Shown here in pieces: positions 23,367 to 51,059 of a stretch of 63,057 bases of DNA. Numbering within the stretch: the stretch's first letter is position 1; every line of letters starts with the position of its first letter. The translations under genes were made by a program, and so were the position numbers. Source of the stretch: a virus (Duplodnaviria; Heunggongvirae; Uroviricota; Caudoviricetes); IMG/VR virus record IMGVR_UViG_3300014205_000184, positions 67,162-130,218 of that record; one strand, written 5' to 3'. Below the pieces are notes generated by a model. The model was not told where the DNA came from, searched no databases, and saw nothing but the letters and a program-made list of their open reading frames with translations.

Positions 23367-23926
23367 TATGCTTCCTCAAATCTTGCTTGTTCTATATAAC
23401 TACCAGAAATTCTTTTTAAAATTGACAAATTCTCCCCATCTCTGACTATTTTCCATGTTCCATTTGTTGCGGAGTCTCCAAAATATTCTGCTGTAGTAGA
23501 CGCTCCTAAAAAATCTTCAGATGTTTTAAATGAATTGTTTCCAATATCAATATCAACATTAGCATTTGAACCATTAATGTTAAGCGGTGTGAAATTGAGA
23601 GCTGAGATGGTCATTGTTTTTGTAATATTATCAGAACTAAACGCAATTCCAGAACCAGTACGTAGATTTAATGTAGTAGTTAATGAATTAGCTGTAATAT
23701 CAGTTCCAACAACATTAACTTTATCAAAAAGATTTTGTAAACTAGCTCCAGATATAATATTTAAATTTTGTAATAATAATTGATGTTTTAAAATCTCATC
23801 ATCATGTTTATTGTAATCCGTAGCTCCAGCAACAGTATCATCGCCTTCAGAATAATCTGGGTCTAATCTTTGTGGATTTCCAGGATAGCTAGGATATAGA
23901 GATTCGTTGATTGACATTATCGGCAC
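23366..23926 (-). CDS. Short fibre-like structural protein
   Basis: Shares a ~46-aa module with ORF 9634..11697; C-terminal FGDSATNGTWKIVRDG motif. Confidence 0.65.
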   Translation of the reverse strand: MPIMSINESLYPSYPGNPQRLDPDYSEGDDTVAGATDYNKHDDEILKHQLLLQNLNIISGASLQNLFDKVNVVGTDITANSLTTTLNLRTGSGIAFSSDNITKTMTISALNFTPLNINGSNANVDIDIGNNSFKTSEDFLGASTTAEYFGDSATNGTWKIVRDGENLSILKRISGSYIEQARFEEA

Positions 23927-24896
23927 CTTCTAATATTAAATCATTTTTTATCATTATATGTATTAATTCTTTAAATTTTACTCTTGGCTCCCACCCTAAT
24001 GCGTTTTTAGCTTTATCGTAATTACCAATCAATAAATTCACATCAGACGGTCTAAAAAATTTAACATCACTTACAACATAATCTTTCCAATCTAAACCAA
24101 CTGCTGAAAATGCTACCTCTGCAAACTCTTGAACAGTATGCACTTCATTCGTAGCTATTACATAATCATCCGGATATTCTTGCTGAAGCATAAGCCACAT
24201 AGCTTCTACATAATCTCCTGAAAAACCCCAATCACGTTTAGCTGTTAAATCACCGAGATATAGTTTATCTAACTTACCCGCTTTAATTTTAGCTACAGCA
24301 TTGGTTATTTTACGAGTTACGAACTCAAACCCTCTACGTGGGCCTTCATGATTAAAAAGTATCCCACTACATGCGAATATATTATATGCTTCTCTATAGT
24401 TTCTAGTCAAATCAAACCCTGCGACTTTTGATATACCATAAGCTGAACGTGGGTGAAATATAGTATTCTCTGTTTGTGGTACTTCATGCACTTTACCAAA
24501 CATCTCGGAACTTGCGGCAAAATAAAACTTGCATTTCGGAGCATATTTTTTTATAGCTGAAAGTATATAATGCGTTCCATTAATATTCGTATTCATCGTG
24601 GAGAACTCATCTTCAAAAGAATATGATACAAACGATTGAGCGGCAAGATGATAGCATTCATCGGGTTGTACTTTTTCTACTACATCACATATACTAGGAT
24701 AAGATTCTAAACTAGCAGAATGTAACGTTATCTTATCAAGTAAATGCTTAATTCTCCATAATCTGTGGTCGGGGTCTTCAATTGCAACACGACGAACGAT
24801 TCCGTGAATTTCATATCCTTTACTCAAAAGTAACTCTGCTAGATAGCTTCCATCCTGGCCACTTATCCCCGTTATTAATGCTCTCATTCTATTCAC
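23889..24896 (-). CDS. gmd: GDP-mannose 4,6-dehydratase
   Basis: ALITGISGQDGSYLAELLLSKGYEIHG; YHLAAQSFV; ASSEMFG; PRSAYGISK; FVTRKIT; RDWG. Confidence 0.95.
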   Translation of the reverse strand: MNRMRALITGISGQDGSYLAELLLSKGYEIHGIVRRVAIEDPDHRLWRIKHLLDKITLHSASLESYPSICDVVEKVQPDECYHLAAQSFVSYSFEDEFSTMNTNINGTHYILSAIKKYAPKCKFYFAASSEMFGKVHEVPQTENTIFHPRSAYGISKVAGFDLTRNYREAYNIFACSGILFNHEGPRRGFEFVTRKITNAVAKIKAGKLDKLYLGDLTAKRDWGFSGDYVEAMWLMLQQEYPDDYVIATNEVHTVQEFAEVAFSAVGLDWKDYVVSDVKFFRPSDVNLLIGNYDKAKNALGWEPRVKFKELIHIMIKNDLILEGADNVNQRISIS

Positions 24897-25761
24897 TCCT
24901 CTTGAAGTTTTTATTCATTTCAACAGCACCAGGTATATCTAACCAATCTTTCTTTATACGTATCTTGTCATTAAACTGCATCATAGTTTTTAATATAACG
25001 GGGTCATAACCATTGTCTTCTGCTAACTTAATAAACGCCATGGGGTCTTTAACTAGACATCTTCCGCCAACACCAAAATCCCCATCATGCCCAGGAACTT
25101 TTCTATGCGTTCCAATTCTACCATCAAATTTTAAATAATCTTGAATTTTATCATAATTAACGCCTATTTTTTTACATATAAAATATAATTCGTTAGCTAA
25201 CATAACTTGACCTGTTAAGAAAATATTACTTATATATTTAAGTGTTTCGGCTTCGGTGCAGGTTAATTTTATATAATTTATCTTATCACCATATGCGTAA
25301 TAAAATATAGATTTTACCGCTTCGTAAATCGTATCAGAGTTTGCTCCTATCACTATTCTAGATGTGTTTAACATATCATCATTTGCACTTCTCTCAGTAA
25401 GGAATTCGGGGCAGAAAACATAGTCAAATTTTGGATATTTTTCAGATAATCTGTCTGTGCTACCAGATACTGCGGTGCTTCGGATAATTATAATTTTCCT
25501 CTTATCTGTTAAGGAGTTTATATCCTTAATTGAATTATCTATATAGTCTAAGCATATACTGCCATCTATGCGCATAGGAGTAGGTAAACATAAAAATAGA
25601 AAATCTGCATCTTCAACAATAGCAGACCTACTCCCAATATTTTTATACTTATCATAGCGTATTACATTTATATTTTCATGTGCTTTTTCTTCAAACAAAT
25701 TAGCGGTTGCTTCACCAACGTTCCCAACTCCCCAAATACCAATATTTATTTTTTTATTCAT
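24889..25761 (-). CDS. UDP-glucose/GDP-mannose dehydrogenase family protein (short form)
   Basis: GIWGVGNVG Rossmann motif; FLCLPTP; RSTAVSG; FCPEFL; catalytic GGRCLVKD; no C-terminal UDP-binding domain. Confidence 0.85.
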   Translation of the reverse strand: MNKKINIGIWGVGNVGEATANLFEEKAHENINVIRYDKYKNIGSRSAIVEDADFLFLCLPTPMRIDGSICLDYIDNSIKDINSLTDKRKIIIIRSTAVSGSTDRLSEKYPKFDYVFCPEFLTERSANDDMLNTSRIVIGANSDTIYEAVKSIFYYAYGDKINYIKLTCTEAETLKYISNIFLTGQVMLANELYFICKKIGVNYDKIQDYLKFDGRIGTHRKVPGHDGDFGVGGRCLVKDPMAFIKLAEDNGYDPVILKTMMQFNDKIRIKKDWLDIPGAVEMNKNFKRSE

Positions 25762-26525
25762 TCTATCGATTCCTCCATTTCTAGTTTCATGTCCAGTAAA
25801 TGTACTTTTCGCTCTATCTGTATTTGTTCGTATCTATTTTGCCAATATTTTCTACTTCCATTTGTTTTCATATGACAATTATGACACAATGATATTAAAT
25901 TTACGCCATCATTATTAAATTTATTATAATCTATATGATGAATATCTAATTTCGTAAATAGTTCTCTTTGAGGTGCGCTACACTCCATACAATTATAGCT
26001 ATCTCGTTTTCTGATAAATTCTTTTAGCTTGTCATTAAACTCTCTAGGATAATTTAAAATTGAATTACCATTAATATAGTTGCTCGCATTTTCACCTATT
26101 CTATTCTTAGAGTTCCATTCACCCACGCACTTTCTATCGCAAAAATGGTTTTTTTGATTTTTATATTGATAATTTGGGTCTTCACACTGCTTCCCGCAAT
26201 TATCACAATTAAATTTTATCCTTTTTGTATAGGCTGGATTTTTTTCACCCACTTGATTTTTAGACAACCATGCTCCGTAACATTTATAATTATTTTTACA
26301 AAAATGGTGTTTATTGTGTTTAAATTTATATGGAGTAAGCAATAAATCACTACCACAAGTGTCGCATTTTACTTTAATCTTATCTTTATACATTGGGTTT
26401 TTTATGCCAACATTGCTTACGGATACCCACTTTCCACGACACTTATTACTACAAAATCTTTGTTTATCATGTTTATGTTTTTCAAACAATTTATTACAAA
26501 TTTCGCATTTAAACATTATCTTCAT
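25758..26525 (-). CDS. HNH homing endonuclease with N-terminal CxxC...FCxxKC repeats
   Basis: IRKRDSYNCMEC...LDIHHIDYNKFNN...NLISLCHNCH. Confidence 0.88.
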   Translation of the reverse strand: MKIMFKCEICNKLFEKHKHDKQRFCSNKCRGKWVSVSNVGIKNPMYKDKIKVKCDTCGSDLLLTPYKFKHNKHHFCKNNYKCYGAWLSKNQVGEKNPAYTKRIKFNCDNCGKQCEDPNYQYKNQKNHFCDRKCVGEWNSKNRIGENASNYINGNSILNYPREFNDKLKEFIRKRDSYNCMECSAPQRELFTKLDIHHIDYNKFNNDGVNLISLCHNCHMKTNGSRKYWQNRYEQIQIERKVHLLDMKLEMEESIE

Positions 26526-27517
26526 TTTTTATTCCATATAGATGGTGCCTTGCTATTCCATAACTCCAAAGGTTCACATAACCATTCCTGTGCTCCTATA
26601 CTTTTACACCACACAGCCATTTCATTCAAACATTCTTGAAGAGACCTAGTTTCTTTATACCCCAACTCATTAACACTTTTATCGTAAGTAGAATAAGCAT
26701 ATTTCACTTCTTTTGGTCTTGCGGGTAAATGTTCAATATTAACTTTTCCAACAACATCCATAGCTTTTAACGTCATCTCAGCGGCTTCGTTTAATGTTAT
26801 TGGTTCAATTCCACCTATGTTATAAATTTTACCATCTGTAAACTCTTCTAGACACTTCACATAACAAGGCAACGAAAATGAGATATAGCTAAAAGCCCGC
26901 ATCTGATTCCCATCACCAAACACATATATTTGTTTCTCACCTAACATAATTCTGTTCATCCATATAGCAAAAACATTTCTGTATAAATCAAACGCTTGTC
27001 TCTCTCCGAACACATTATGCGGTTTAACTATTGTATACTTAAAATCGTGTATATCAGCTAAACATTGAGTTGACCACTCCATAGCTGTTTTGTTGATTCC
27101 ATATATATCTTCTGGTCTACACTCCATATCTTCATTAAACGGTGGTATCTGCTGACCATATGTTGCCATAGTACTAAACATTATCATCTTCTTAAACTTA
27201 ACTTTAATACACGCATTAAGAAGATTCATATATGAAAGATAGTTGTCCTCTGTGCTTTTTAAAGGTTCAAACAGCGAACCTATCTCACGTGCGCTTGCGG
27301 CGCAATGAAATACATGAGTTGGTTTTATATCTTGTATAAGCTTTTCAGTAGATACTTTATCTCGTAAATCACAAACGCTAAATGTATGGTTTGTAGTATT
27401 ACGTATATTGCCGCCAGAAAGATTATCAATTCCAACAACATCGTGCCCCATTTTTGTAAGTTCATCGGCTATCCATGAGCCTATTAAGCCCGCACTTCCC
27501 GTTACTAGAATTTTCAT
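26522..27517 (-). CDS. NAD-dependent nucleotide-sugar epimerase/dehydratase
   Basis: KILVTGSAGLIGS; FHCAA; YGINK (YxxxK); KPHNVFG. Confidence 0.92.
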   Translation of the reverse strand: MKILVTGSAGLIGSWIADELTKMGHDVVGIDNLSGGNIRNTTNHTFSVCDLRDKVSTEKLIQDIKPTHVFHCAASAREIGSLFEPLKSTEDNYLSYMNLLNACIKVKFKKMIMFSTMATYGQQIPPFNEDMECRPEDIYGINKTAMEWSTQCLADIHDFKYTIVKPHNVFGERQAFDLYRNVFAIWMNRIMLGEKQIYVFGDGNQMRAFSYISFSLPCYVKCLEEFTDGKIYNIGGIEPITLNEAAEMTLKAMDVVGKVNIEHLPARPKEVKYAYSTYDKSVNELGYKETRSLQECLNEMAVWCKSIGAQEWLCEPLELWNSKAPSIWNKK

Positions 27518-28173
27518 TTTCGCACCTCGACATCTTTCTTTCGTAATAAAGCATTTATATCAAACCCATTGTCATTCGTATTAAACAATAGTAATTCTAC
27601 AGCGTCTTTTCTTTTATCAAGACAAGCCTTCAATTCATCGGGATTCATCTCGCAATAAGCATAATCATATTTACCTATATGCGGACCATTATCATGTAAG
27701 AAAAATCTTCTATCTGGTATTGTTATTGCTATCAGACCACCAGGTTTTAAAACTCTTATCCATTCTGCAAGTGCTAAGTCAGTATTCGGGATATGCTCTA
27801 AAGTATGACTAGATATAATATACCCTACGCTGTTAGTCTCAAATGGCAAATTGTGGTCAGTAACAACTACATCGCAAGTATCAACACCAACGTTAACGTG
27901 AAGCACCCCTGATATTGGGGTTCCGCCTATACCTAATCCTACACCCAGATGTTTACATGTTGCCTGAGTAAATAAAAATAGCGAATCACGCTGTATTTGT
28001 GATGGGATGTTACGATTTACGAACTGATAACGTGGCGGACCGTCCCACCATCCGTCAGATTTAGATTGCTCACGAACATCTTTATATCTATGGTCGTTAA
28101 ATTTAGAGTACACATCTGATTTTACAGGGGTATTTTTCTTATCCTCAACTATCATCTCATCTAGTGTTTTCAT
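27514..28173 (-). CDS. Class I SAM-dependent methyltransferase
   Basis: GLGIGG; LPFETNSVGYIISSHTLEHI; EWIRVLKPGG. Confidence 0.85.
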   Translation of the reverse strand: MKTLDEMIVEDKKNTPVKSDVYSKFNDHRYKDVREQSKSDGWWDGPPRYQFVNRNIPSQIQRDSLFLFTQATCKHLGVGLGIGGTPISGVLHVNVGVDTCDVVVTDHNLPFETNSVGYIISSHTLEHIPNTDLALAEWIRVLKPGGLIAITIPDRRFFLHDNGPHIGKYDYAYCEMNPDELKACLDKRKDAVELLLFNTNDNGFDINALLRKKDVEVRK

Positions 28174-29192
28174 ATTGTTCCTTCTAGAATGCTTAACATA
28201 TACATAGTTCGCTGTTTACATGTATGATACTTCATTAAATGCTCATGCCCTGCCATCGCTATTGCGTTTCGCTCATCATCATGAGATAGATAGTACTCTA
28301 AAAGTTCGTTAAAATTAGATAGGTCGTCTTTAATTATAACGCACGTCTCTTTATCCTTAAAAGGAAAAGGTATGATTATTTTAGGGTCAATAGTCATCAT
28401 CATAGTATTATACGATGGTATCTCCCAATATCTTACACAGTCTTTTCCGTGACCAATACACGAGAGTCCAATTTTAGAGCTCGCTATCTTTGACATATAG
28501 TCCTTGTATGCCATTTTACCATGGCGAGGTTTATTTCTGTCCCAATCTGCGACTCCCGAATCAATATCTACTACGCTATTATCAATGTTAAACTCGTGAA
28601 ACTTTTGTACTAATTTAACTCGTAATTGATTTGTGTTACCTAATATTGAAAACACATTTAAATCTTTTTTTAAATCATTAATTTCTGGTAATTTATTCAA
28701 AAATGCAGAGAATGGTAATGGATATATTCTTATTCCATTATACGATGTCTCGTACATCATTTCTCGTTTAAATATGTACTGTGGATTAAACTCATTAATT
28801 AATTGAGTCTGTAAATTTGCTCCGTCTTCACCATCAATAAGCACCAATTTATTAGCTAATAACTTAACTTTATCTTTAATATATCTAAAAGATTTTACAA
28901 CGTACTCTCTAGGCGATGCTAAAATTATATAATCAAAATCGTTAATCTGCTCACATATCTGGTCTAAAGTAAGTTCTGGTAGATGTGGTCTTATTAACTC
29001 ATAATCAACTTTGCCAGTCCACCCAGTCTTACCATCTGGTAATATATAATCATCGTCCGGTGCTCCAGTCCTCCAACGCTTTAACATTGGATAGACATAA
29101 ACGCTACTCTCGCCAACCAAGTCGCATAGTCCTTCAAAAACCATACTGGTTAGATAATCTTGCTGGGGGTCAACTAAATAAAGTACTTTCAT
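28170..29192 (-). CDS. Glycosyltransferase (CgeB-like GT-B)
   Basis: LVLIDGED; YIFKRE; YMSKIASSKIGLSCIGHG..CVRYWEIP; AIAMAGHEHLMKYHT. Confidence 0.75.
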   Translation of the reverse strand: MKVLYLVDPQQDYLTSMVFEGLCDLVGESSVYVYPMLKRWRTGAPDDDYILPDGKTGWTGKVDYELIRPHLPELTLDQICEQINDFDYIILASPREYVVKSFRYIKDKVKLLANKLVLIDGEDGANLQTQLINEFNPQYIFKREMMYETSYNGIRIYPLPFSAFLNKLPEINDLKKDLNVFSILGNTNQLRVKLVQKFHEFNIDNSVVDIDSGVADWDRNKPRHGKMAYKDYMSKIASSKIGLSCIGHGKDCVRYWEIPSYNTMMMTIDPKIIIPFPFKDKETCVIIKDDLSNFNELLEYYLSHDDERNAIAMAGHEHLMKYHTCKQRTMYMLSILEGTI

Positions 29193-29932
29193 TCTATCGC
29201 TTCCTCCATTTCTAATTTAATATCTAATAAATGCACTTTTCGGTCGATTTGTACCTGTTCGTAATGGTTTTGCCAATATTTTCTATTTCCATTTGTTTTC
29301 ATATGACATGTTTTACATAATGAAATTAAATTAATGCCATCATTGTTTTCTTTATCGTAATCTATGTGATGTACGTCCAGTGCATTAATAAGTTCTTTTT
29401 GAGGGACCTCGCACTCTACACATTTATAACCATCCCGATGTCTAATATTATCTTTTAAAAATTTATTAAATTCTGTCGGGTATGATAAGGTTGAGTTACC
29501 GTGAATATAATTTGGTGAATTTTCACCAATATGATGTTTTGAGTAATATCTCCCCATACATTTCAGACTACAAAATTGATTATCGTTTCTATTTTTATGT
29601 GATTTTATTCTTATAACTGTATTTAAACAATAACCGCATTTTACGCTAACTCTACTATGATTAAACCTCCATTCATGAAAACACTTCCTTGAGCAAAATT
29701 TATTTAATTGTTTTTTGAAATGGTCAACACGCTTAATGATGTGTTTTTTACAATTATCGCATTTAACTTTTATTTTAGCAATTTTTCTATATGGTAACCT
29801 TTTTTTACCGATATTGTTTTCAGATAGACATTTTCTATTGCAAAAATGCAACTTTGATTTTTTAAAACGGTACTTATGCCTAAGCACTATTTTTCCACAA
29901 TTATCACATTTACATCTAATCTTAAGCTTCAC
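29189..29932 (-). CDS. HNH homing endonuclease, paralog of 25758..26525
   Basis: IRHRDGYKCVEC...LDVHHIDYDKENN..INLISLCKTCH; near-identical C-terminal 60 aa. Confidence 0.88.
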   Translation of the reverse strand: MKLKIRCKCDNCGKIVLRHKYRFKKSKLHFCNRKCLSENNIGKKRLPYRKIAKIKVKCDNCKKHIIKRVDHFKKQLNKFCSRKCFHEWRFNHSRVSVKCGYCLNTVIRIKSHKNRNDNQFCSLKCMGRYYSKHHIGENSPNYIHGNSTLSYPTEFNKFLKDNIRHRDGYKCVECEVPQKELINALDVHHIDYDKENNDGINLISLCKTCHMKTNGNRKYWQNHYEQVQIDRKVHLLDIKLEMEEAIE

Positions 29933-44673: not shown

Positions 44674-45600
44674 TTATTCTTCCTTTAAAAACTCTTTTAT
44701 TCTAATAAAAGAACTTTTGTTGTCTATTCCGTAATACCCCCATATCACATCTTCTCTTCCCCCGAACTTATGACAGTACCCATGATTATTTTTAATTCCT
44801 ATTCTTAATAATTTTTGAGATATATCATTATCGTGTAAAAATTCACTAATGTGCCCACCTAAACCACCATTTAATACATGTTCTTCCATTGTTATAATTC
44901 TACCACTATCACTTAATACATCTAGCATTTTTTTATTATTAAATGGTAGTGTGTGCACGTCGATTACACCTAAATCGTCTATTCTAGACGCTATATCTAA
45001 AGCTGTATGCGTCATAATACCTGTTGATAATATATTACGACTACCTTTTTTAAAGATATGAAAACCATCATCAAGATTAATATGTTTTTCATATATATCA
45101 TCTGTTTTGCTTCTATCCAATCTTATATAATTAGCTTGTTTATAACTATACGACATTAACGCAATTTTTTCAGCCATAATTGAATCCGTACAATTATTAA
45201 TAATTATATTGGGTATAGCTCGTATCAAAGATACATCTTCAAATATATTATGAGTTGGACCGGCATCATCATAACTAAAACCACATCCAACTCCTACAAT
45301 TGTCAATGGAATACCCATTATTCCACAATTAATTCTTATCTGCTCTAAACATCTAGTTGATACAAAAGATGAAATCCCATAAACATATACTTTCTTACCC
45401 TGTAATGCCATACCGGAAGCTATACTGATACCATTTTGCTCTGCTATCCCAACATTAATATATTGCGACGATAGGTCTTTTCTGAACTTATCTAATGATG
45501 GAGCTGACATGTCAATACTGACAAGATAAACATTTTTGTCATTCTTAGCTAAATCATAGAGTACATCAAAAAATGCGTCTCTTTGTTGTAGATTACTCAT
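44674..45600 (-). CDS. Transketolase, C-terminal (pyrimidine-binding) subunit
   Basis: NVGIAEQNGISIASGMAL; RCLEQIR; AGPTH; TMEEHVLNGGLG. Confidence 0.92.
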   Translation of the reverse strand: MSNLQQRDAFFDVLYDLAKNDKNVYLVSIDMSAPSLDKFRKDLSSQYINVGIAEQNGISIASGMALQGKKVYVYGISSFVSTRCLEQIRINCGIMGIPLTIVGVGCGFSYDDAGPTHNIFEDVSLIRAIPNIIINNCTDSIMAEKIALMSYSYKQANYIRLDRSKTDDIYEKHINLDDGFHIFKKGSRNILSTGIMTHTALDIASRIDDLGVIDVHTLPFNNKKMLDVLSDSGRIITMEEHVLNGGLGGHISEFLHDNDISQKLLRIGIKNNHGYCHKFGGREDVIWGYYGIDNKSSFIRIKEFLKEE

Positions 45601-46417
45601 ACGCTATCTCCTCTCTAAATTTAACAATCTCATCATTATTTGTTGGGGTTCTTGAATGCCACAACGGTTGATAGTAAATACTTGGTATACCATATCCTTT
45701 TATTGTATCTGCTATAATAATCTTTGGTTTAGATGAACTTCTAGCATGAGATGATTGTAGTTCTCTTATAAGTTCGCTCATATTATGCCCATCAATTCTA
45801 CACGTTTCCCACCCAAAAGATTTCCATTTGTCTATAAGTGGTTCAATGGCGAGACATTCTTCAGTAAAATCTGTAGCACAAAGTTTATTTCTATCCATAA
45901 TAACTACAAGATTGTTAAGATTATTATGGCTTGCAAACATAGCCGCTTCCCATATCGACCCCTCATAGCACTCACCATCACCAATTAATGTAAATATAGT
46001 ATTGCATAGTTTATCTTTTTTATTAGCTAATGCCATACCTACTGCGACATTTAACCCGTGCCCTAATGAACCTGATGTTATTTCTATACCCGGAACACCT
46101 CTCTGAGGATGTGTACCCATAATTCCACCAAGTTGTGCAACATGCAGTAATTGAAGTTTATCAAAAAACCCACAATCAGCAAGCACTGAATATAAAGCAA
46201 TACTAGCTTGTCCTTTGCTCAATATAAACTTATCTCTTTTATCCCAATCTGGATTAGATGAGTCATATTTTAATATCCCGCTATAATATAATGCTACAAG
46301 TATATCGACACATGATAATGATGACGTTAAGTGCCCAGTTTTAGCATTAACACACACATCAAACACCCATCTTCGTATTTGTTTTGATTTTAAATACAAA
46401 TCATTTATATTAATCAC
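45593..46417 (-). CDS. Transketolase, N-terminal (ThDP-binding) subunit
   Basis: GHLTSSLS; RDKFILSKG; SGSLGHGL; GDGECYEGSIWEA (ThDP motif). Confidence 0.93.
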   Translation of the reverse strand: MININDLYLKSKQIRRWVFDVCVNAKTGHLTSSLSCVDILVALYYSGILKYDSSNPDWDKRDKFILSKGQASIALYSVLADCGFFDKLQLLHVAQLGGIMGTHPQRGVPGIEITSGSLGHGLNVAVGMALANKKDKLCNTIFTLIGDGECYEGSIWEAAMFASHNNLNNLVVIMDRNKLCATDFTEECLAIEPLIDKWKSFGWETCRIDGHNMSELIRELQSSHARSSSKPKIIIADTIKGYGIPSIYYQPLWHSRTPTNNDEIVKFREEIAYE

Positions 46418-47864
46418 TAAATAATCTCCTTTTAATACTTACTTTAAGCATATCTTTTATATCATTCTTTACTTTTTCACCAAATTTATAACTCATTAAA
46501 TCTAAATATTTCTTATTTGAACAATATGTTTTAAAAGCATTATCCCTAAATTTTAGTACTTGCCATGATTCAAGATATTTAGTCGGTAGTGGTTTTGTAT
46601 CGTAAGAATATTGAGAGTATCCATTCCATGATTCTGGTAATAATTCTTGTTTGTCACTATAATTGTTATATAATTTAGAACCAGGATAAGCCATAGTACA
46701 GAAAAAGTTTGGAGATTCACAATTGAGTTCAACGGCTAACTCAAATGTATCTGTCATTGTCTCAATATTATCATCTGGAAGACCAAACATAAAATTACCA
46801 CTTATGTTTATACCATTATCTTTTATCATTTTTACAATAGATACAATATTTTTATTTATTACTTTATTAACTCCTCTAAGTGATGTTTTACTTGCGGATT
46901 CTATGCCTAACCCTAACCAATTAAACCCAGCTCTTTTCATTTTACTTAATAATTTTTCATTAATAGTATCTACTCTAGCATATGCAAAAATATTTAAATC
47001 GTAACGTCTATTTATTATAAAATCACATATTTTTTCAACTCTTGAAATATCAAAAATAAATAATTCATCATCAAATCTTATATGTTGTACATGATATTTA
47101 TTTACTAACTCATCTATCCAATCAAACACTATGTCTAGTGACCAATACCTTATGCCCGGCTTACCAAAGATAGAATTAATACAACAAAAATCACAGCTAT
47201 ATGGGCATCCTAGAGATGTATTTAATGTTACATATGGAGAGCGTGTTGTATAGCCATATGTGTGAAAATCATGAGCCCTATAATTACTAAAATCTGGGAG
47301 TAAATCAAACGCATAATTATCAAGCGTTATGTCTAAATGTTTAATAATTGGAGATGGTTTATTTAATAGTATTGTTTCATCTTTTATATACCATATACCA
47401 GATATATTCTTAATTTCTTTATCACTATTTAAATAATGTAAGATATCAACTACTTGATATGCACCTTCTCCTACTATGACATAATCTATAGCTTCATCTC
47501 TAAGTGTTCTCTCTGGTAACGCTGATGGGTGAGTTCCACCCATAGCTATTGGTATATTTTTATTGTAGTTCTTTATATCTCTAGCTATAGACGATGCGCT
47601 ATCCATAGTTTGAGTAGACGCAGATGGGTGATGACCATACACCATTATTACTACCAAGTTAGGTGAGTATTTATTTATTTCACGTGTTGCATCGAACCCA
47701 TCTACGTTTACATCATGTATCGCTACAGAAAAGTCATTCTTTCTTACATAATTTGCTAATAATGACGTCCATGTTGGCGGAGCTATAGCTGTATATTTAT
47801 TTGATAATTCCTGATATGTTTTTTTATGATTACCAGGATGAATAAATAAAACGTCAACGCTCAT
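46410..47864 (-). CDS. Cobalamin-binding radical SAM enzyme (class B methylase type)
   Basis: N-terminal B12-binding domain (AMGGTHPSALP, DYVIVGEG); SLGCPYSCDFC; FDDELF; GIESAS; FMFGLP. Confidence 0.9.
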   Translation of the reverse strand: MSVDVLFIHPGNHKKTYQELSNKYTAIAPPTWTSLLANYVRKNDFSVAIHDVNVDGFDATREINKYSPNLVVIMVYGHHPSASTQTMDSASSIARDIKNYNKNIPIAMGGTHPSALPERTLRDEAIDYVIVGEGAYQVVDILHYLNSDKEIKNISGIWYIKDETILLNKPSPIIKHLDITLDNYAFDLLPDFSNYRAHDFHTYGYTTRSPYVTLNTSLGCPYSCDFCCINSIFGKPGIRYWSLDIVFDWIDELVNKYHVQHIRFDDELFIFDISRVEKICDFIINRRYDLNIFAYARVDTINEKLLSKMKRAGFNWLGLGIESASKTSLRGVNKVINKNIVSIVKMIKDNGINISGNFMFGLPDDNIETMTDTFELAVELNCESPNFFCTMAYPGSKLYNNYSDKQELLPESWNGYSQYSYDTKPLPTKYLESWQVLKFRDNAFKTYCSNKKYLDLMSYKFGEKVKNDIKDMLKVSIKRRLFSD

Positions 47865-47866: not shown

Positions 47867-48466
47867 TTATATCCTTTTGAACATTATTAATTTATCAATC
47901 TGTTCTGTAACTTCAATTTTTTGCCAGTTACTATTATTTAACAATAGCTTATCTACTGCGCTCTTAACTTGCAACATATCATAATCATCAACAAGTAAAT
48001 AACCACCGACTTTAACCCATTTAGACATATTTGTTATATCGCTCGTCACGTATGGTTCGTCGTGATTCCCGTCAACGATACACAAGTCTAGTTCTATATC
48101 CCAATTAGGTGCTGTTTTTAATGAATCACCATCGTGTATCGTTACTCTATTCTCGGTATTTGTTGATTTTATAGCATGTACAAAACCCTCTCGAATATTA
48201 GCAAACCCGGGAGACGCCGGTCCGCCTAACCAATTATCCAGAGCATGAAAATGACAATTTGGTAATGCATGAAGAATTATGAGAGCATCTCCACCTTGAA
48301 AAATACCAATTTCAGCTACGCTATATTTTTCTTCGGGGTTAAAATGAGTACATAAAAGCTGAATGAGACGGTCTTTATCCGTATCCGATATCCAACCGCC
48401 AAATTTATATAAATCAATACGGTTATCTCCACTCTTCTTTAATTCTTCATTAAATCTTTGTGACAT
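47867..48466 (-). CDS. Class I methyltransferase (Methyltransf_24-like)
   Basis: AEIGIFQG; DLCIVDGNH; GGYLLVDDY. Confidence 0.85.
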   Translation of the reverse strand: MSQRFNEELKKSGDNRIDLYKFGGWISDTDKDRLIQLLCTHFNPEEKYSVAEIGIFQGGDALIILHALPNCHFHALDNWLGGPASPGFANIREGFVHAIKSTNTENRVTIHDGDSLKTAPNWDIELDLCIVDGNHDEPYVTSDITNMSKWVKVGGYLLVDDYDMLQVKSAVDKLLLNNSNWQKIEVTEQIDKLIMFKRI

Positions 48467-49079
48467 CTTTACCCCACTTTAATTGTTCTGTTTTTTGTAA
48501 TACGAAATAATATGAATTCTGCTCAACGTCACTACCTTCTTTTAATATTTTTCTAAACCCAGATTTATGAAAATAAAACTTCCATTGTGTTGGTGAGAAA
48601 GGGTGATGATGATAATCATTCGGGTAGTCAGTCCCGTCAATACTATATGGTATATGAACAACCATATATCCCATTGACTTAAGTACTCGATTGCACTCAT
48701 AAAGTACTATCAATGGTGACAATGAGTGTTCAAATGTTTGTCTTGAAACTATAGCATCAAATATATTATCGTCAAATGGTAAATCATGCATATCTGCTAC
48801 AATAGCCTTCAACCCGTGTTTTAGACATTCCTGTTGCTCACCGGTGCTATATGTTAAACCTATAGTTTCATGCCCAGATTCTTCTAAAAGATGCAACAAA
48901 TACCCATCTGCACAACCTATCTCAAGAACTTTATTAGCTTCTTGAGGAACTAATGATGCTACAAATGGGAAATTACCATGACCCCAAACTCTAAACCCTT
49001 CACCACCAAAACTATCCCATTTATCAATTTCTAAATATTTTTTCCATTTATTTAAAAACTCTTTTCTTATAATAAACAT
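48450..49079 (-). CDS. Class I methyltransferase (Methyltransf_11-like)
   Basis: VLEIGCADG; ADMHDLPFDDNIFDAI; FEHS; RVLKSMG. Confidence 0.9.
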   Translation of the reverse strand: MFIIRKEFLNKWKKYLEIDKWDSFGGEGFRVWGHGNFPFVASLVPQEANKVLEIGCADGYLLHLLEESGHETIGLTYSTGEQQECLKHGLKAIVADMHDLPFDDNIFDAIVSRQTFEHSLSPLIVLYECNRVLKSMGYMVVHIPYSIDGTDYPNDYHHHPFSPTQWKFYFHKSGFRKILKEGSDVEQNSYYFVLQKTEQLKWGKDVTKI

Positions 49080-49690
49080 TAATATCCTCTAGTATAATAC
49101 ATCGGCCAGAACGTGTGGTCTGTTCTCTGCGTAAAACCTGGAAATTTTACTATTTGTTCAACACACGCTTTCTCAACACCCGTTATCCAGTCATCTAAAA
49201 GTAGAATACACTTATCTTTGGCGTGTTGTAACCACAGCATATCTATTTTAACATCTTCATATGTGTGCGAACCATCTATATAAAGCATATCAAATTTTTC
49301 ACCATTCCATTTAGATAGTATTTCTTCACTTGAACCCGGAAGACATGTTATGTTATTTTCTAACCCTAATCTTTTAATGTTTGATAAAGTAGCATCTAAT
49401 GTACATGGCAATACGCATTCATACTTATTATATCTTTCTGGGCGTTGCTCATCTTTAACAAAACATGGGTCTACACAATATATTTTTACGTTTTTATCTT
49501 TTAATTTTAACCCAAACACACACGCTGACCCACCATAATGCGACCCTATCTCTACTATAACTGCATTATCAGGTAATTTTTCACAAATCTTAATTAACGG
49601 AGAAACATAATCATCTTTTCTACCAGCAGTACCTGGGATTTTACCTACTATCTCAAAAATTTCATCTAAATTCATTATTACTTCCCCCAA
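49079..49690 (-). CDS. Class I methyltransferase (Methyltransf_24-like)
   Basis: IVEIGSHYGGS; FDMLYIDGSHTYEDV; LLDDW. Confidence 0.88.
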   Translation of the reverse strand: MGEVIMNLDEIFEIVGKIPGTAGRKDDYVSPLIKICEKLPDNAVIVEIGSHYGGSACVFGLKLKDKNVKIYCVDPCFVKDEQRPERYNKYECVLPCTLDATLSNIKRLGLENNITCLPGSSEEILSKWNGEKFDMLYIDGSHTYEDVKIDMLWLQHAKDKCILLLDDWITGVEKACVEQIVKFPGFTQRTDHTFWPMYYTRGY

Positions 49691-50310
49691 TCTTCATATT
49701 TCCCATTATAATCATAGCAACATAACTGATGAATGCTTATTAATTTAGGAATTAAATTGTTATCTATATCTTGAAAACTATCTTCAATATTCTCTACTAC
49801 GCTATGATTTACACAATATAACCCACAATTAACCCATCGTTCTCTTGTAAATCCTAATACTTTATTATATTTTTTTACTATAACACCACGTTCTTTTTCT
49901 GTTTCTGCTATATTTTTTACAACCATAGTCATCATACTATCGTTTTGTAAATGTGATATGTAGAAATTCTGAAGATTAATATCTAGCAAATTAACGTCGT
50001 TATGCACAACAATAAATGGATTTGAAAGACTTGAACAAAATTTCTTAATAGCATACGCATTCCCATTTCTAATATCTTCAACTAATAGATTGTACCCTAA
50101 GTCTTTAAAATATTCAATTTCACTACTATGAATATTTATATTTATCTTAAAAACTCCCACATTATCCCCATGCATAAAAGGATACAGCACAGTGTTAACT
50201 GCAATATCATTGTTATATTGCATAAGTGCTTTTGGAGTATTTCCTATTTTACTCTTGACTCTGCTCCCGCACCCACCAGATAATAAGAGTACATCTATTT
50301 TTTTATCCAT
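49678..50310 (-). CDS. Sugar-phosphate nucleotidyltransferase (HddC/GMP-like)
   Basis: LLSGGCGSRV...PKAL; VHNDV; VNCGLY. Confidence 0.82.
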   Translation of the reverse strand: MDKKIDVLLLSGGCGSRVKSKIGNTPKALMQYNNDIAVNTVLYPFMHGDNVGVFKININIHSSEIEYFKDLGYNLLVEDIRNGNAYAIKKFCSSLSNPFIVVHNDVNLLDINLQNFYISHLQNDSMMTMVVKNIAETEKERGVIVKKYNKVLGFTRERWVNCGLYCVNHSVVENIEDSFQDIDNNLIPKLISIHQLCCYDYNGKYEDWGK

Positions 50311-50488
50311 TTTTTCTCGTGAAAAAGTTTTTAATCTTTGTAATAAATGATACTTTTTCTAAAAAATCCCCATCACACGGTTTAGTATCTGATAAAATAT
50401 TGCATAATTTTCTATCCGTACCAACAGTAACCCCTTTGTATAAAAATTCACATTTTTTATTGTTTGGTTTTTTACAATAATACGCCAT
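50303..50488 (-). CDS. Small Cys-containing hypothetical protein
   Basis: 61-aa ORF coupled to its neighbours. Confidence 0.5.
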   Translation of the reverse strand: MAYYCKKPNNKKCEFLYKGVTVGTDRKLCNILSDTKPCDGDFLEKVSFITKIKNFFTRKNG

Positions 50489-50489
50489 A

Positions 50490-51059
50490 CTAATTCCCCC
50501 CTATTACGTTAGCACTCATTAAATCTGCCATATGAAGCAAAACAGCTAAGGCATGCATTTTACCACCATCTTTAGTCCAACCACCATGATGATAACTTAC
50601 GGAATTTAATTGCTTATCAGATAATGATATTCCATGCTTGGCGCATACATTTACGACTCTTGCACTATCATGTGAATCAACTTTATTATAATTATACTCA
50701 AACTCATAGACATTTGCTTGCCAATTTTCAGAATCATATTTTTTATTATCTACATACTTAGTTAACTTTTCAAGGTCATGTATAAAACACACAAAAACAA
50801 CATCAGACTCTGTTATTAATTTCTTTCTAAATTCTTGTTCAAAAATCTTAAATATTTTTAAACCACACTCAATAACTTCTAACGTATGCTTCTCAAGACC
50901 ACCTTGATAATTATGATGAAACTTAATACTAGCAGGCCAGTGCTGAAAATCTTCCGCTATTTCTGAATATAACCCTAAAACTTTATCTTTAAGATTTTCA
51001 TTCAGATATTTTGTTAAATAATCTTTAACATTATTTGCCACAACCACCGCCTTTCCCAC
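50490..51059 (-). CDS. HD-domain phosphohydrolase (YhaM-like)
   Basis: PASIKFHHNYQGGLEKHTLEV; FIHDLEK; HHGG; HMAD. Confidence 0.85.
   Translation of the reverse strand: MGKAVVVANNVKDYLTKYLNENLKDKVLGLYSEIAEDFQHWPASIKFHHNYQGGLEKHTLEVIECGLKIFKIFEQEFRKKLITESDVVFVCFIHDLEKLTKYVDNKKYDSENWQANVYEFEYNYNKVDSHDSARVVNVCAKHGISLSDKQLNSVSYHHGGWTKDGGKMHALAVLLHMADLMSANVIGGN

What the first reader, a model, noticed from the sequence alone, without database searches (positions are those of the whole stretch)
23889..51059. Two large glycan-biosynthesis islands interleaved with head genes: likely virion glycosylation
Seen: TerL is separated from portal by ~12.7 kb and the capsid gene from the adaptor by ~13.7 kb. 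The gaps are filled largely with Gmd x2, a UDP-sugar dehydrogenase, an epimerase, RmlC, HddA, a nucleotidyltransferase, split transketolase, a B12 radical SAM, at least four methyltransferases and four to five glycosyltransferases, co-oriented and coupled with late genes. Established: glycosylated virions are known in some mycobacteriophages and in chloroviruses/Mimiviridae. Inference: the phage makes its own unusual sugars for a glycan coat. DNA or host-surface glycosylation are alternatives, but no base hydroxymethylase is visible in this window.
Basis: partly seen in the sequence, partly recalled or inferred. Interest (0 to 1): 0.85.

Follow-up and report, generated by a model that had tools for sequence, protein, structure and literature searches.

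The report
Phage head-operon sugar-coating gene islands
An uncultured 130-kb tailed phage devotes about 17 kb of its head-gene operon to making unusual sugars (including a methylated 6-deoxyheptose type) and attaching them, most likely to its own capsid surface; this has been shown so far only on a much smaller scale in a few mycobacteriophages and in giant viruses.

Summary
TerL and portal lie 12,697 bp apart and the capsid gene and next neck gene 13,740 bp apart. Both gaps hold co-oriented, mostly overlapping genes.

Island 1 holds a 755-aa tandem GT4, a GT2, a GT1-like transferase, a methyltransferase, a UDP-sugar 4-epimerase-like SDR, a short UGDH and Gmd.

Island 2 is a GDP-6-deoxyheptose-type pathway: HddA-like and HddC-like enzymes, a heptose 4,6-dehydratase-like SDR, a 3,5-epimerase and a split transketolase. 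It also has a GT-A transferase, three methyltransferases and a B12 radical SAM enzyme.

About 2.4 kb is homing endonucleases, and the last ~3.5 kb of gap 1 is a fibre/radical-SAM cassette.

In 13 of 13 related lineages (capsid identity down to 32%) the order protease, decoration protein, capsid, 130-aa protein, tandem GT, GT2 is kept, while the downstream cargo varies. Island 2 occurs only in this phage and its closest relative.

The genome has no export or priming machinery, no ThyA-type hydroxymethylase and no C5 DNA methyltransferase.

Virion protein glycosylation is the best reading (about 0.6) but the target is unproven. The enzymes are not homologous to the mycobacteriophage ones. This scan has flagged similar head-embedded islands in other genomes. 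Verdict: a new, unusually large variant of a known kind.

The parts
51527..53230 (-). Large terminase (TerL), upstream boundary of island 2
   Evidence: Distant tblastn match to an annotated TerL. Invariant Walker A motif GGRSxGKS in the 3-way alignment. Directly followed by the portal gene in relatives.
50490..51059 (-). HD-domain phosphohydrolase-like protein at the start of the sugar genes
   Evidence: Weak HD-type Pfam hits. Conserved in G001 (81%) and G002 (45%), where it also heads the GT cluster. A sugar-phosphate phosphatase role is inference only.
49678..50310 (-). HddC-like sugar-1-phosphate guanylyltransferase
   Evidence: N-terminal GGxGSR motif. Best PDB profile hits are 6jq8/5xhw (6-deoxy-D-manno-heptose pathway protein HddC, 2.3e-6) and mannose-1-P guanylyltransferases.
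47867..49690 (-). Three SAM methyltransferases (Methyltransf_24, Methyltransf_11, Methyltransf_24)
   Evidence: Pfam. All three are conserved in G001.
46410..47864 (-). B12-binding radical SAM enzyme (class B, probable C-methyltransferase or sugar-rearranging enzyme)
   Evidence: Pfam B12-binding plus Radical_SAM. Best NCBIfam hits are HpnJ and BchE, all far below cut-off. Paralogues recur next to the tandem GT in relatives L025 and L026.
44674..46417 (-). Split transketolase (N-terminal subunit 45593-46417, C-terminal subunit 44674-45600)
   Evidence: Pfam Transketolase_N, Transket_pyr and Transketolase_C. NCBIfam transketolase PRK05899 at 250 bits for the N-terminal half. Supply of sedoheptulose-7-P is inferred.
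43761..44672 (-). GT-A (GT2-like) glycosyltransferase with no Pfam hit
   Evidence: ESM Atlas features 0.97 and structure TM about 0.6 to GT2 and Glyco_transf_7C clusters, many of them viral. A homologue is paired with the heptose-dehydratase-like gene in L034.
42770..43777 (-). GDP-heptose 4,6-dehydratase-like SDR
   Evidence: Best PDB hit is 7us5, GDP-D-glycero-D-manno-heptose 4,6-dehydratase, at 2.2e-71 (244 bits). dTDP-glucose dehydratases score about 99 bits.
42192..42749 (-). RmlC-fold NDP-4-keto-sugar 3,5-epimerase
   Evidence: Pfam dTDP_sugar_isom at 6.4e-42. PDB hits tie between RmlC and the C. jejuni GDP-4-keto-heptose 3-/3,5-epimerases.
41202..42191 (-). HddA/WcbL-like GHMP heptose-phosphate kinase
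   Evidence: NCBIfam HddA at 1.6e-38, below the equivalog cut-off. PDB hits are WcbL 4usk/4usm and the heptose kinases 3k85 and 4n3o.
40290..41120 (-). 276-aa protein with a C-terminal zinc ribbon, phage-specific family, function unknown
   Evidence: Conserved in G001.
39417..40262 (-). NUMOD3/Vsr-type homing endonuclease (mobile insertion)
   Evidence: Pfam. Absent from G001 and G002.
37091..38830 (-). Portal protein, downstream boundary of island 2
   Evidence: Atlas features and structure match portal clusters. Adjacent to TerL in G002, L023, L026, L031, L035 and L036.
35163..36473 (-). Prohead protease (S78) with a C-terminal extension
   Evidence: Pfam and PHROGs.
34758..35135 (-). gpD-like capsid decoration (cement) protein, 22% Ser+Thr, with a conserved TSGxGTKT loop; candidate glycan acceptor
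   Evidence: AlphaFold model pLDDT 84. Foldseek probability 1.0 to decoration proteins in the phiCD508, Adjutor, T1, phi29, HFTV1 and TW1 capsids. Alignment. The acceptor role is inference.
33698..34729 (-). Major capsid protein (HK97 fold) with a conserved S/T-containing C-terminal tail
   Evidence: phrog_3990 at 1.9e-43. Hits to actinophage capsid proteins. Tail motif P-[ST]-[IV]-T-T-N-V is conserved across the clade.
33218..33610 (-). p130: conserved small protein always found between the capsid gene and the tandem GT, function unknown
   Evidence: Present in 13 of 13 lineages. Model pLDDT 81, a small beta domain plus a helical bundle, with no significant fold match.
30916..33183 (-). 755-aa tandem GT4 (two GT-B modules): the conserved anchor enzyme of island 1
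   Evidence: Pfam Glycos_transf_1 and Glyco_trans_1_4. About 39 full-length homologues, all in the same capsid-adjacent context where the upstream side is visible. The only cellular relative (22% identity) lies in a Wzm/Wzt locus.
29922..30890 (-). GT2 glycosyltransferase, conserved next to the tandem GT
   Evidence: Pfam. Clade survey.
29189..29932 (-). HNH homing endonuclease (mobile insertion)
   Evidence: Weak Pfam HNH hit. Absent from G001 and G002. Homologous to an HEG in L028.
28170..29192 (-). Glyco_trans_1_2-type glycosyltransferase, conserved in the clade
   Evidence: Pfam. Clade survey.
27514..28173 (-). SAM methyltransferase (Methyltransf_11)
   Evidence: Pfam.
26522..27517 (-). 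SDR resembling UDP-hexose/UDP-uronate 4-epimerases
   Evidence: Pfam and NCBIfam. Best PDB hit is 4zrm, UDP-glucose 4-epimerase, at 2.1e-37, followed by UDP-GlcA 4-epimerases. It carries an intein in G002.
25758..26525 (-). Zinc-finger/HNH homing endonuclease (mobile insertion)
   Evidence: NCBIfam IscB/ZorE HNH region. Absent from G001 and G002.
24889..25761 (-). Short (290-aa) UDP-sugar 6-dehydrogenase-like enzyme lacking the C-terminal UDP-binding domain
   Evidence: Pfam N-terminal and central domains only. GxGxxG and GGxCxxKD motifs are retained, and it is 65% identical to the G001 copy. The same short form is present in L023 and L031.
23889..24896 (-). GDP-mannose 4,6-dehydratase (Gmd)
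   Evidence: Pfam at 1.7e-119. TIGR01472 scores 382 bits against a cut-off of 415.
20377..23926 (-). Fibre-like N-terminal module (23366-23926), Cys-rich 489-aa protein and rSAM/SPASM maturase. This cassette fills the end of gap 1 and is not a sugar gene set.
Evidence: The 186-aa ORF is homologous to the N-terminus of an 856-aa protein in G001. The rSAM/SPASM enzyme is PapB-like.
19431..19958 (-).
   Evidence: No family hit. Conserved in G001, G002 and L026, directly after the sugar genes. The tape measure protein lies downstream at 12144-15560.

Best explanation
The two islands are a phage-encoded, cytoplasmic system that glycosylates the phage's own virion proteins. It is expressed together with the head genes.

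Sugar supply, island 1 (enzyme families shown): Gmd converts GDP-mannose to a GDP-4-keto-6-deoxyhexose. A short UGDH and a 4-epimerase-like SDR work on UDP-hexoses or UDP-uronates.

Sugar supply, island 2 (families shown, order inferred):
1. Transketolase raises sedoheptulose-7-P.
2. A host isomerase is assumed, because the phage encodes no GmhA.
3. The HddA-like kinase and the HddC-like guanylyltransferase make GDP-heptose.
4. The heptose 4,6-dehydratase-like SDR and the 3,5-epimerase convert it to a GDP-6-deoxyheptose.

Assembly (inferred): the clade-conserved tandem GT4, with GT2, the GT1-like enzyme and the GT-A enzyme, builds an oligosaccharide or short polymer on exposed Ser/Thr residues of capsid-surface proteins. 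Candidate acceptors are the gpD-like decoration protein, the S/T-bearing C-terminal tail of the capsid protein, and possibly the fibre. Four SAM methyltransferases and the B12 radical SAM enzyme then methylate or cap the sugars.

The conserved GT core next to a hypervariable downstream cargo resembles an O-antigen-like diversifying glycan coat on the particle.
For: (1) All listed enzyme families are present, co-oriented and tightly packed within the TerL-to-neck operon.

(2) Island 2 forms a coherent pathway. The dehydratase hits 7us5 at 2.2e-71, the epimerase matches C. jejuni GDP-4-keto-heptose epimerases, the kinase matches WcbL and HddA, and the nucleotidyltransferase matches HddC.

(3) The order protease, decoration protein, capsid, p130, tandem GT, GT2 holds in 13 of 13 distinct lineages, with capsid identity down to 32%, while the downstream cargo varies.

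(4) Orthologues in G001 are 50-81% identical, similar to the structural proteins, and island GC content matches the rest of the arm. The genes are therefore long-resident and under selection.

(5) No island protein has a multi-pass membrane segment and there is no initiating phosphoglycosyl transferase (controls positive). The only cellular relative of the tandem GT sits beside a Wzm/Wzt transporter, which the phage lacks.

(6) No ThyA homologue or C5 DNA methyltransferase was found in G000, G001 or G002 (controls positive).

(7) The 125-aa gene upstream of the capsid gene encodes an exposed decoration protein that is 22% Ser+Thr. The capsid C-terminal tail carries a conserved S/T motif.

(8) Precedent for the placement: Corndog has its methyltransferase and three GTs (gp35-38) inside the head module, and its capsid and tail tube are reported to be glycosylated (PMC11600133 and PMC12363180, both citing Freeman et al. 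2023). S-CBS4 and TJE1 carry homologous GT, epimerase and nucleotidyltransferase genes next to their head genes.
Against: There is no direct evidence for the acceptor.
- Virion proteins carry no serine-repeat or long S/T-rich tags, and the capsid tail is short and conserved rather than low-complexity.
- The GTs are not homologous to the experimentally validated mycobacteriophage GTs.
- The nearest cellular relative of the tandem GT is a lipid-linked polysaccharide enzyme.
- DNA-glycosylating phages also carry GT-B enzymes and NDP-sugar genes, can attach heptose to DNA, and some have these clusters near structural genes.
- The pathway is incomplete on the phage side: no GmhA, and no identified GmhB or C4 reductase.
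- Promoter and terminator scans were uninformative, so late co-expression rests on gene packing alone.
- A weak tyrosine-recombinase hit means a temperate lifestyle cannot be excluded.
Confidence: 0.6

Rival explanations
1. The islands remodel host cell-envelope glycans. The phage GTs would act at the cytoplasmic face on the host's undecaprenyl-linked O-antigen, capsule, teichoic-acid or S-layer-glycan intermediates, and host transporters would export the altered polymer. Possible benefits are blocking superinfection, preventing progeny from re-adsorbing to debris, or serotype conversion in a lysogen.
For: The only cellular relative of the tandem GT lies in an ABC-transporter (Wzm/Wzt) polysaccharide locus together with Gmd and SDRs. 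6-Deoxyheptoses and O-methylated sugars are typical capsule and O-antigen components (established knowledge; the PDB hits come from the C. jejuni and Burkholderia capsule pathways). A weak tyrosine recombinase is present in the left arm.
Against: The genome has no priming transferase, flippase, polymerase, ABC transporter or any multi-pass membrane protein in the islands. The genes are embedded and translationally packed inside the head operon in 13 of 13 lineages, not placed as an independently expressed moron. Envelope remodelling late in a lytic cycle would have little time to act (inference).
Confidence: 0.14
2. The islands hypermodify the phage DNA with sugars before or during packaging, to evade restriction.
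For: Phage DNA-glycosylation clusters use GT-B enzymes resembling MshA and BshA, encode nucleotidyltransferase, kinase and phosphatase sugar-activation genes, can add heptose or di-heptose to 5hmC, act late, and are sometimes found near structural genes. The left arm encodes a dNMP kinase and ThyX. The islands flank the packaging genes.
Against: All described routes begin with a ThyA-family 5-hydroxymethyl/5-hydroxy pyrimidine synthase, or with a C5 methyltransferase plus a TET-like dioxygenase. Neither a ThyA homologue nor a C5 methyltransferase is present in G000, G001 or G002, with positive controls. Tet_JBP and the T4 beta-glucosyltransferase family gave no hit, but those searches had no positive control. 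The anchor GT is tied to the capsid gene and p130, not to replication or nucleotide-metabolism genes.
Confidence: 0.08
3. The glycan is attached only to a non-capsid product: the fibre or Cys-rich protein encoded just downstream, tail proteins, or a soluble phage or host protein or small molecule. On this reading, adjacency to the capsid gene would reflect only a permissive insertion site for cargo and selfish elements.
For: The head-to-neck junction is clearly a hot spot for insertions: three homing endonucleases here, and inteins and TnpB in relatives. A fibre-like gene directly follows Gmd, as an 856-aa protein in G001. The putative tail tube protein has a T/S-rich patch.
Against: A neutral hot spot does not explain why the same tandem GT, GT2 and p130 stay fixed next to the capsid gene across lineages with 32-80% capsid identity. 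G002 and L026 keep the GT block but have no fibre gene between the island and the adaptor.
Confidence: 0.1

Closest known systems
Mycobacteriophage virion glycosylation cassettes (Corndog gp35-38, Che8 gp108-110, Myrna; Freeman et al. 2023, known here through PMC11600133, PMC12363180 and PMC12619734)
   Same: A methyltransferase plus several GT genes sit inside or next to the head module of a siphovirus (Corndog gp35-38 lie upstream of the major head protein gp41). The products modify capsid and tail-tube subunits at their C-termini. Here too, GTs and methyltransferases lie between head genes, and the capsid protein ends in an S/T-bearing tail.
   Different: There is no detectable sequence or profile homology between the GTs. 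The mycobacteriophage cassettes are about 3 kb and rely on host nucleotide sugars. This phage adds about 10 kb of its own nucleotide-sugar biosynthesis, a B12 radical SAM enzyme and a transketolase, in two separate islands. The host is unknown and low-GC, so it is not an actinobacterium.
Giant-virus autonomous capsid/fibril glycosylation (chlorovirus PBCV-1 GMD, GMER, UGDH and the multidomain GT-methyltransferase A064R; Mimivirus fibril sugar clusters). From my own knowledge; PMC9270025 and PMC7700475 only appeared in a literature search and were not read.
   Same: The virus encodes its own GDP-mannose 4,6-dehydratase, UDP-sugar dehydrogenase, multidomain GTs and sugar methyltransferases, and uses them in the cytoplasm to decorate its own particle with rare, methylated 6-deoxy sugars.
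   Different: Those are eukaryotic NCLDVs with double-jelly-roll capsids. This is a tailed phage with an HK97-fold capsid, different GT families and a heptose branch. Homology to the giant-virus enzymes was not tested here.
GDP-6-deoxyheptose capsule/O-antigen pathways of Campylobacter jejuni, Burkholderia pseudomallei (WcbL) and Yersinia pseudotuberculosis (HddA, HddC, DmhA)
   Same: The island 2 kinase, guanylyltransferase, 4,6-dehydratase and 3,5-epimerase each have these enzymes as best or co-best solved relatives. O-methylation of heptoses is also known from C. jejuni capsules (established knowledge).
   Different: The phage lacks GmhA, an identifiable GmhB and a dedicated C4 reductase. 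It adds a split transketolase and a B12 radical SAM enzyme, and it has no capsule export genes. All NCBIfam scores are far below the equivalog cut-offs.
Head-proximal GT/methyltransferase cassettes of Synechococcus phage S-CBS4 (gp14-16) and Tetrasphaera phage TJE1 (orf9-14)
   Same: True homologues of the N-terminal GT4 module, GT2, epimerase and nucleotidyltransferase are present. They lie between portal and protease in S-CBS4 and just upstream of the terminase in TJE1, as in relative G002. An HNH endonuclease is embedded there as well.
   Different: Those cassettes are small (3-6 kb) and have a single-module GT. Their function has not been established in anything I could read.
Phage DNA sugar-hypermodification clusters (T4 glucosyl-5hmC; RB69/DLP3 arabinosyl-5hoC; MT/5mYOX/GT clusters of Pyle et al.)
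   Same: GT-B transferases plus phage-encoded sugar activation; heptose can be the sugar; they act late in infection.
   Different: The defining base-hydroxylating enzymes are absent here and in two relatives. Here the GT is linked to the capsid gene rather than to nucleotide-metabolism genes.

Membership tests
Mycobacteriophage-type virion glycosylation cassette | GT and methyltransferase genes embedded in or adjoining the virion structural operon | tested here: met
   Compare the Corndog layout.
Mycobacteriophage-type virion glycosylation cassette | GTs homologous to the validated enzymes (Corndog gp36-38 / Che8 gp110 cluster) | tested here: not met
   tblastn of all window proteins against the Corndog locus gave no hit. 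hhalign and BLASTP of the GT-A enzymes against gp36, gp37 and gp38 gave E values of 0.19-0.43. Che8 itself was not compared.
Mycobacteriophage-type virion glycosylation cassette | Glycans physically present on capsid and tail-tube subunits | not testable with these tools
   Needs MS or glycostaining of virions or of co-expressed proteins.
Mycobacteriophage-type virion glycosylation cassette | Ser/Thr acceptor sites at the C-termini of capsid and tail-tube proteins | tested here: inconclusive
   The capsid tail has a conserved P-[ST]-[IV]-T-T-N-V motif with 4-7 S/T in the last 20 residues. There is no extended S/T tract, and the tail tube C-terminus has none.
GDP-6-deoxyheptose biosynthesis (GmhA, HddA, GmhB, HddC, DmhA-type dehydratase, epimerase, reductase) | GDP-heptose 4,6-dehydratase | tested here: met
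   7us5 at 2.2e-71 (244 bits), far above dTDP-glucose or GDP-mannose dehydratases. This is similarity only; activity was not assayed.
GDP-6-deoxyheptose biosynthesis (GmhA, HddA, GmhB, HddC, DmhA-type dehydratase, epimerase, reductase) | Heptose-7-phosphate kinase (HddA) and heptose-1-phosphate guanylyltransferase (HddC) | tested here: met
   HddA model at 1.6e-38 but 133 bits against a 600-bit cut-off. WcbL, 3k85 and 4n3o are the top PDB hits. HddC (6jq8/5xhw) is the top PDB profile hit at 2.3e-6. This is family-level membership, not equivalog level.
GDP-6-deoxyheptose biosynthesis (GmhA, HddA, GmhB, HddC, DmhA-type dehydratase, epimerase, reductase) | Sedoheptulose-7-phosphate isomerase GmhA (SIS domain) | tested here: not met
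   No SIS_2 match in six frames of the whole genome, with positive controls. The host would have to supply this step.
GDP-6-deoxyheptose biosynthesis (GmhA, HddA, GmhB, HddC, DmhA-type dehydratase, epimerase, reductase) | GmhB phosphatase and C4 reductase | tested here: inconclusive
   No HAD phosphatase was seen. The HD protein and the SDR at 26522-27517 are possible substitutes but are unproven.
Phage DNA glycosylation cluster | ThyA-family 5hm/5ho-pyrimidine synthase | tested here: not met
   PF00303 is absent from G000, G001 and G002, with positive controls in 10 genomes. Only ThyX is present.
Phage DNA glycosylation cluster | C5 cytosine methyltransferase plus TET/JBP-type dioxygenase | tested here: not met
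   PF00145 is absent from G000, G001 and G002, with positive controls. PF12851 gave no hit, but no control genome rang, so that half is inconclusive.
Bacterial surface-polysaccharide locus (Wzx/Wzy or ABC-transporter type) | Initiating polyprenyl-phosphate glycosyl transferase and membrane export components | tested here: not met
   No Bac_transf hit. No multi-pass membrane protein in either island. WecA-type (PF00953), Wzx, Wzy and ABC families were not searched individually.

The most novel reading that the evidence does not exclude
A tailed phage clade carries a dedicated capsid-glycosylation module (p130 plus a tandem GT4 fixed beside the capsid gene). It diversifies its particle coat in the way bacteria diversify O-antigens. 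In this lineage the coat includes a phage-made, methylated (possibly C-methylated) 6-deoxyheptose, fed by the phage's own transketolase. That would be the first autonomous rare-sugar virion glycosylation system in a bacteriophage on the scale of giant viruses.
Probability: 0.45. Interest if true: 0.78.

Novelty: new variant of a known kind. Interest (0 to 1): 0.6.

Why it matters
Virion glycosylation in phages has been demonstrated only for a few mycobacteriophages, which use small GT cassettes and host sugars.

If this reading is right, particle glycosylation is a conserved trait of a whole clade of uncultured, low-GC environmental phages. It would also mean a phage can invest about 13% of its genome in making rare sugars for its coat, as giant viruses do.

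- The conserved GT core with hypervariable cargo implies strong diversifying selection on the particle surface. That points to an unrecognised layer of phage-host or phage-environment interaction, such as adsorption, decoy avoidance, stability or defence evasion.
- The island is a source of compact, soluble enzymes for 6-deoxyheptose and methylated-sugar synthesis.
- It gives a directly testable system: co-express the capsid protein, the decoration protein, p130 and the GTs.

Tried and rejected
- **Sequence-level identification of TerL, portal and 'adaptor'.** PHROGs, Pfam and PDB profile searches found nothing. The portal was rescued only by the Atlas. The adaptor remains a positional call.
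- **Promoter and terminator scans.** Counts did not differ from shuffled sequence, so they are uninformative.
- **p130 fold search.** No significant match. A non-significant hit to prophage protein YqbF was not pursued.
- **Complex prediction, tandem GT with p130.** No verdict (score 0.02). This counts neither for nor against binding.
- **Serine-repeat or long S/T acceptor tags.** None found.
- **Homology to Corndog GTs.** None found.
- **Broken UGDH?** I considered that the UDP-sugar dehydrogenase was split by the neighbouring HNH gene. I rejected this because G001 lacks the HNH gene but has the same short form, and the catalytic motifs are intact.
- **Double SDR in G002?** I considered that G002's 693-aa SDR was a bifunctional double SDR. 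It is a single epimerase carrying an intein.
- **Freeman et al. 2023.** The paper (PMC10527164) is not held, so its findings are cited only through secondary papers.
- **Literature searches** for phage 6-deoxyheptose pathways, and for glycosylated capsid or tail tube, found nothing.
- **T4 glucosyltransferase and Tet_JBP family searches** had no positive control, so their negative results carry little weight.

Full report
**Context**

The window is the right half (67162-130218) of a 130,218-bp IMG/VR viral contig with a 38-bp terminal repeat. The left arm is on the plus strand. It encodes replication, repair and nucleotide-metabolism proteins, including ThyX, a dNMP kinase, an N6/N4 DNA methylase, an SNF2 helicase, a primase and MCM. 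The right arm is entirely on the minus strand and holds the late genes. GC content is 0.30-0.37 throughout, with no compositional break at the islands.

**Checking the observation**

- The major capsid protein (33698-34729) matches phrog_3990 at 1.9e-43 and distantly resembles actinophage capsid proteins.
- The prohead protease is Peptidase_S78.
- TerL (51527-53230) and the portal (37091-38830) have no Pfam or PHROG hits.
- TerL is supported by a 21.7% match over 82% of its length to an annotated terminase and an invariant GGRSxGKS Walker A motif.
- The portal is supported by Atlas feature scores of 0.98 to portal clusters and structural TM of about 0.6 to Portal_Mu and Phage_portal_2 clusters.
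- In relatives these two genes are directly adjacent.
It is the first conserved gene after the sugar genes in G002 and L026 and precedes the neck, tail and tape-measure genes. I accept it as a positional call only.
- The two gaps measure 12,697 and 13,740 bp, as stated.
- Genes within the gaps mostly overlap by 1-17 nt or are separated by less than 30 nt.

**Content of island 1, in transcription order**

- p130, a conserved 130-aa protein of unknown function.
- A 755-aa tandem GT4.
- A GT2.
- An HNH homing endonuclease.
- A Glyco_trans_1_2-type GT.
- A Methyltransf_11 enzyme.
- An SDR whose best solved relatives are UDP-hexose and UDP-uronate 4-epimerases.
- A zinc-finger/HNH endonuclease.
- A 290-aa UDP-sugar dehydrogenase-like protein. 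It lacks the C-terminal domain but keeps the Rossmann and catalytic-cysteine motifs, and it is 65% identical to its G001 orthologue.
- Gmd, at 382 bits against the 415-bit equivalog cut-off.

After the sugar genes comes a fibre-like N-terminal module, a Cys-rich protein and an rSAM/SPASM maturase (20377-23926). That cassette is absent from relatives and is the subject of another note in this scan.

**Content of island 2**

The Pfam labels hide a coherent pathway.

- The 210-aa ORF at 49678-50310 has the GGxGSR nucleotidyltransferase motif. Its best PDB matches are HddC of the 6-deoxy-D-manno-heptose pathway and mannose-1-phosphate guanylyltransferases.
- The GHMP kinase matches the Burkholderia capsule heptose kinase WcbL and HddA-type kinases.
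dTDP-glucose dehydratases score about 1e-27.
- The RmlC-fold protein ties with the C. jejuni GDP-4-keto-heptose 3-/3,5-epimerases.
- A split transketolase could raise sedoheptulose-7-phosphate. This is inferred from the known transketolase reaction.
- The 303-aa ORF with no Pfam hit is a GT-A (GT2-like) transferase by Atlas features and structure.
- Three SAM methyltransferases and a B12-binding radical SAM enzyme complete the set.
- The phage has no GmhA. No GmhB or dedicated C4 reductase was identified, so host enzymes or non-orthologous substitutes are required.
- A NUMOD3/Vsr homing endonuclease and a phage-specific zinc-ribbon protein of unknown function also lie here.

In total, sugar-related genes occupy about 17 kb, or roughly 13% of the genome. 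Homing endonucleases take about 2.4 kb.

**Comparative evidence**

The capsid protein recovered two relatives in IMG/VR.

- G001 (capsid 80% identical) has both islands in the same places. Its orthologues are 50-81% identical, similar to the structural proteins. It lacks all three endonucleases and the rSAM cassette, and it swaps some cargo, for example an aldo-keto reductase in place of the heptose dehydratase and an extra methyltransferase.
- G002 (capsid 53% identical) has TerL and portal adjacent. Its island 1 is reduced to p130, the tandem GT and the epimerase (which carries an intein), and is followed directly by the adaptor homologue. Its GT2, GT1-like, methyltransferase and HD genes lie upstream of the terminase.

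The tandem GT has about 39 full-length homologues, all metagenomic. I examined every context available through the look-up of encoding contigs and a second IMG/VR scan. All 13 distinct lineages show the order protease, decoration protein, capsid, p130, tandem GT, GT2, with capsid identity as low as 32%.

The genes downstream of that core are hypervariable. They include B12 radical SAM enzymes, methyltransferases, a DegT aminotransferase, a sulfatase-like fusion, GT2, GT9 and GT17 enzymes, SDRs and the short UGDH. They are also littered with inteins, homing endonucleases and TnpB genes.

TerL and portal are about 0.4 kb apart in every lineage except G000 and G001. Island 1's position is therefore ancestral, and island 2 is a lineage-specific addition. 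In L034 the heptose-dehydratase-like gene and the GT-A gene sit within island 1, so modules move between the two sites.

**What the target is**

The whole genome encodes no initiating phosphoglycosyl transferase, and neither island encodes a multi-pass membrane protein. The only cellular relative of the tandem GT (22% identity) lies beside a Wzm/Wzt transporter in a classic polysaccharide locus. The phage system therefore looks like a polysaccharide-type GT set that has lost its membrane steps. This fits glycosylation of a soluble cytoplasmic acceptor.

For DNA as the acceptor, every described route starts from a ThyA-family 5hm/5ho-pyrimidine synthase, or from a C5 methyltransferase plus a TET-like dioxygenase. 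Neither a ThyA homologue nor a C5 methyltransferase is present in G000, G001 or G002, and the control genomes gave positive results. I take this rival seriously all the same, for three reasons:

- Pyle et al. report heptosylated 5hmC and clusters near structural genes.
- RB69 and DLP3 encode their own NDP-sugar pathway.
- My Tet_JBP search had no positive control.

On the protein side, the 125-aa gene upstream of the capsid gene folds as a gpD-like decoration protein. The model has pLDDT 84, and Foldseek gives probability 1.0 to decoration proteins in six phage capsid structures. It is 22% Ser+Thr, has a conserved TSGxGTKT loop, and is duplicated in G002 and L024. The capsid protein ends in a conserved P-[ST]-[IV]-T-T-N-V tail. 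These are plausible acceptors but not proof. There are no serine-repeat tags of the kind other notes in this scan reported.

**Precedents**

Corndog's virions are reported to be glycosylated on capsid and tail tube (PMC11600133 and PMC12363180, both citing Freeman et al. 2023, which I could not read). It carries a methyltransferase and three GTs (gp35-38) inside its head module, upstream of the major head protein.

S-CBS4 has two GTs, a methyltransferase and an HNH gene between its portal and protease genes. TJE1 has a nucleotidyltransferase, an epimerase, a methyltransferase and a GT upstream of its terminase. Those two cassettes contain true homologues of this phage's GT4 module, GT2, epimerase and nucleotidyltransferase. 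The Corndog GTs do not.

The system therefore works like the mycobacteriophage one but is not a member of that enzyme family. In scale and in autonomous sugar supply it is closer to chlorovirus and mimivirus glycosylation (my own knowledge).

**Verdict**

Autonomous synthesis of unusual sugars is well founded. The virion, most likely the capsid surface, is the best-supported target at about 0.6. Host-envelope remodelling (about 0.14), another non-capsid target (about 0.10) and DNA glycosylation (about 0.08) remain open.

A weak tyrosine-recombinase hit in the left arm means temperate behaviour cannot be excluded.

This scan has already flagged similar head-embedded sugar islands in many other genomes, so the theme is recurrent. 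What is distinctive here is:

- the dual-island layout;
- the 6-deoxyheptose branch with a transketolase and a B12 radical SAM enzyme;
- the clade-wide capsid-p130-tandem GT anchor.

Noticed in passing
window 25758-26525, 29189-29932, 39417-40262; also G002 (L013:4682-6763), L023, L024, L025, L026, L028: The sugar islands are a hot spot for selfish elements. This phage has three homing endonucleases there, all absent from G001 and G002. Relatives carry inteins inside the epimerase, Gmd-like, GT2 and DegT genes, plus TnpB/IS605 and LAGLIDADG genes.
   Followed up: partly
window 53145-53948: A 267-aa ORF overlaps the 5' end of TerL by 86 nt. It is absent from G001 and G002, and part of it resembles the HNH endonuclease region of L028 (44% over 68 aa). 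It is probably a fourth homing endonuclease, lying between the conserved 308-aa pre-terminase gene and TerL.
   Followed up: no
window 24889-25761; G001 L010:5415-6326; L023:15636-16451; L031 about 14275-15015: A compact UDP-sugar dehydrogenase-like protein of about 270-300 aa, lacking the C-terminal UDP-binding domain but keeping the catalytic Cys motif, is conserved across the clade. Its substrate and whether it needs a partner are unknown.
   Followed up: partly
G000:C1:28808-29785 (left arm, outside the window; L050): Weak tyrosine-recombinase (Phage_integrase) hit at 30.6 bits, just over the cut-off, among replication genes. It could be an integrase or a dimer resolvase, so the phage's lifestyle is unresolved.
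   Followed up: no
protein P0037: A partial tandem-GT homologue on a 2.4-kb contig is labelled Candidatus Gottesmanbacteria (CPR) by NCBI. This may be a host hint for the clade or a mis-binned phage fragment.
   Followed up: no
G002 L013:126-503 and 523-897; L024:7623-8018 and 8054-8443: The gpD-like decoration gene is tandemly duplicated in two relatives.
   Followed up: no
G002 L012:17211-18770: A 519-aa protein with a weak galactose-binding-like (F5_F8_type_C_2) domain lies between portal and protease in G002 only. It may be a carbohydrate-binding head-associated protein.
   Followed up: no
window 39190-39218 (minus strand): A near-consensus sigma-70-like site (TTGACA, 17 nt spacer, TATACT with an upstream TG) lies in the 270-nt gap upstream of the 104-aa gene and the portal gene. 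Overall promoter counts were not above shuffled sequence.
   Followed up: no
window 20377-21645 and 21657-23126: A PapB-like rSAM/SPASM maturase sits next to a Cys-rich 489-aa protein at the end of gap 1. It is absent from G001 and G002. In G001 the upstream 186-aa module is instead the N-terminus of an 856-aa fibre-like protein.
   Followed up: partly
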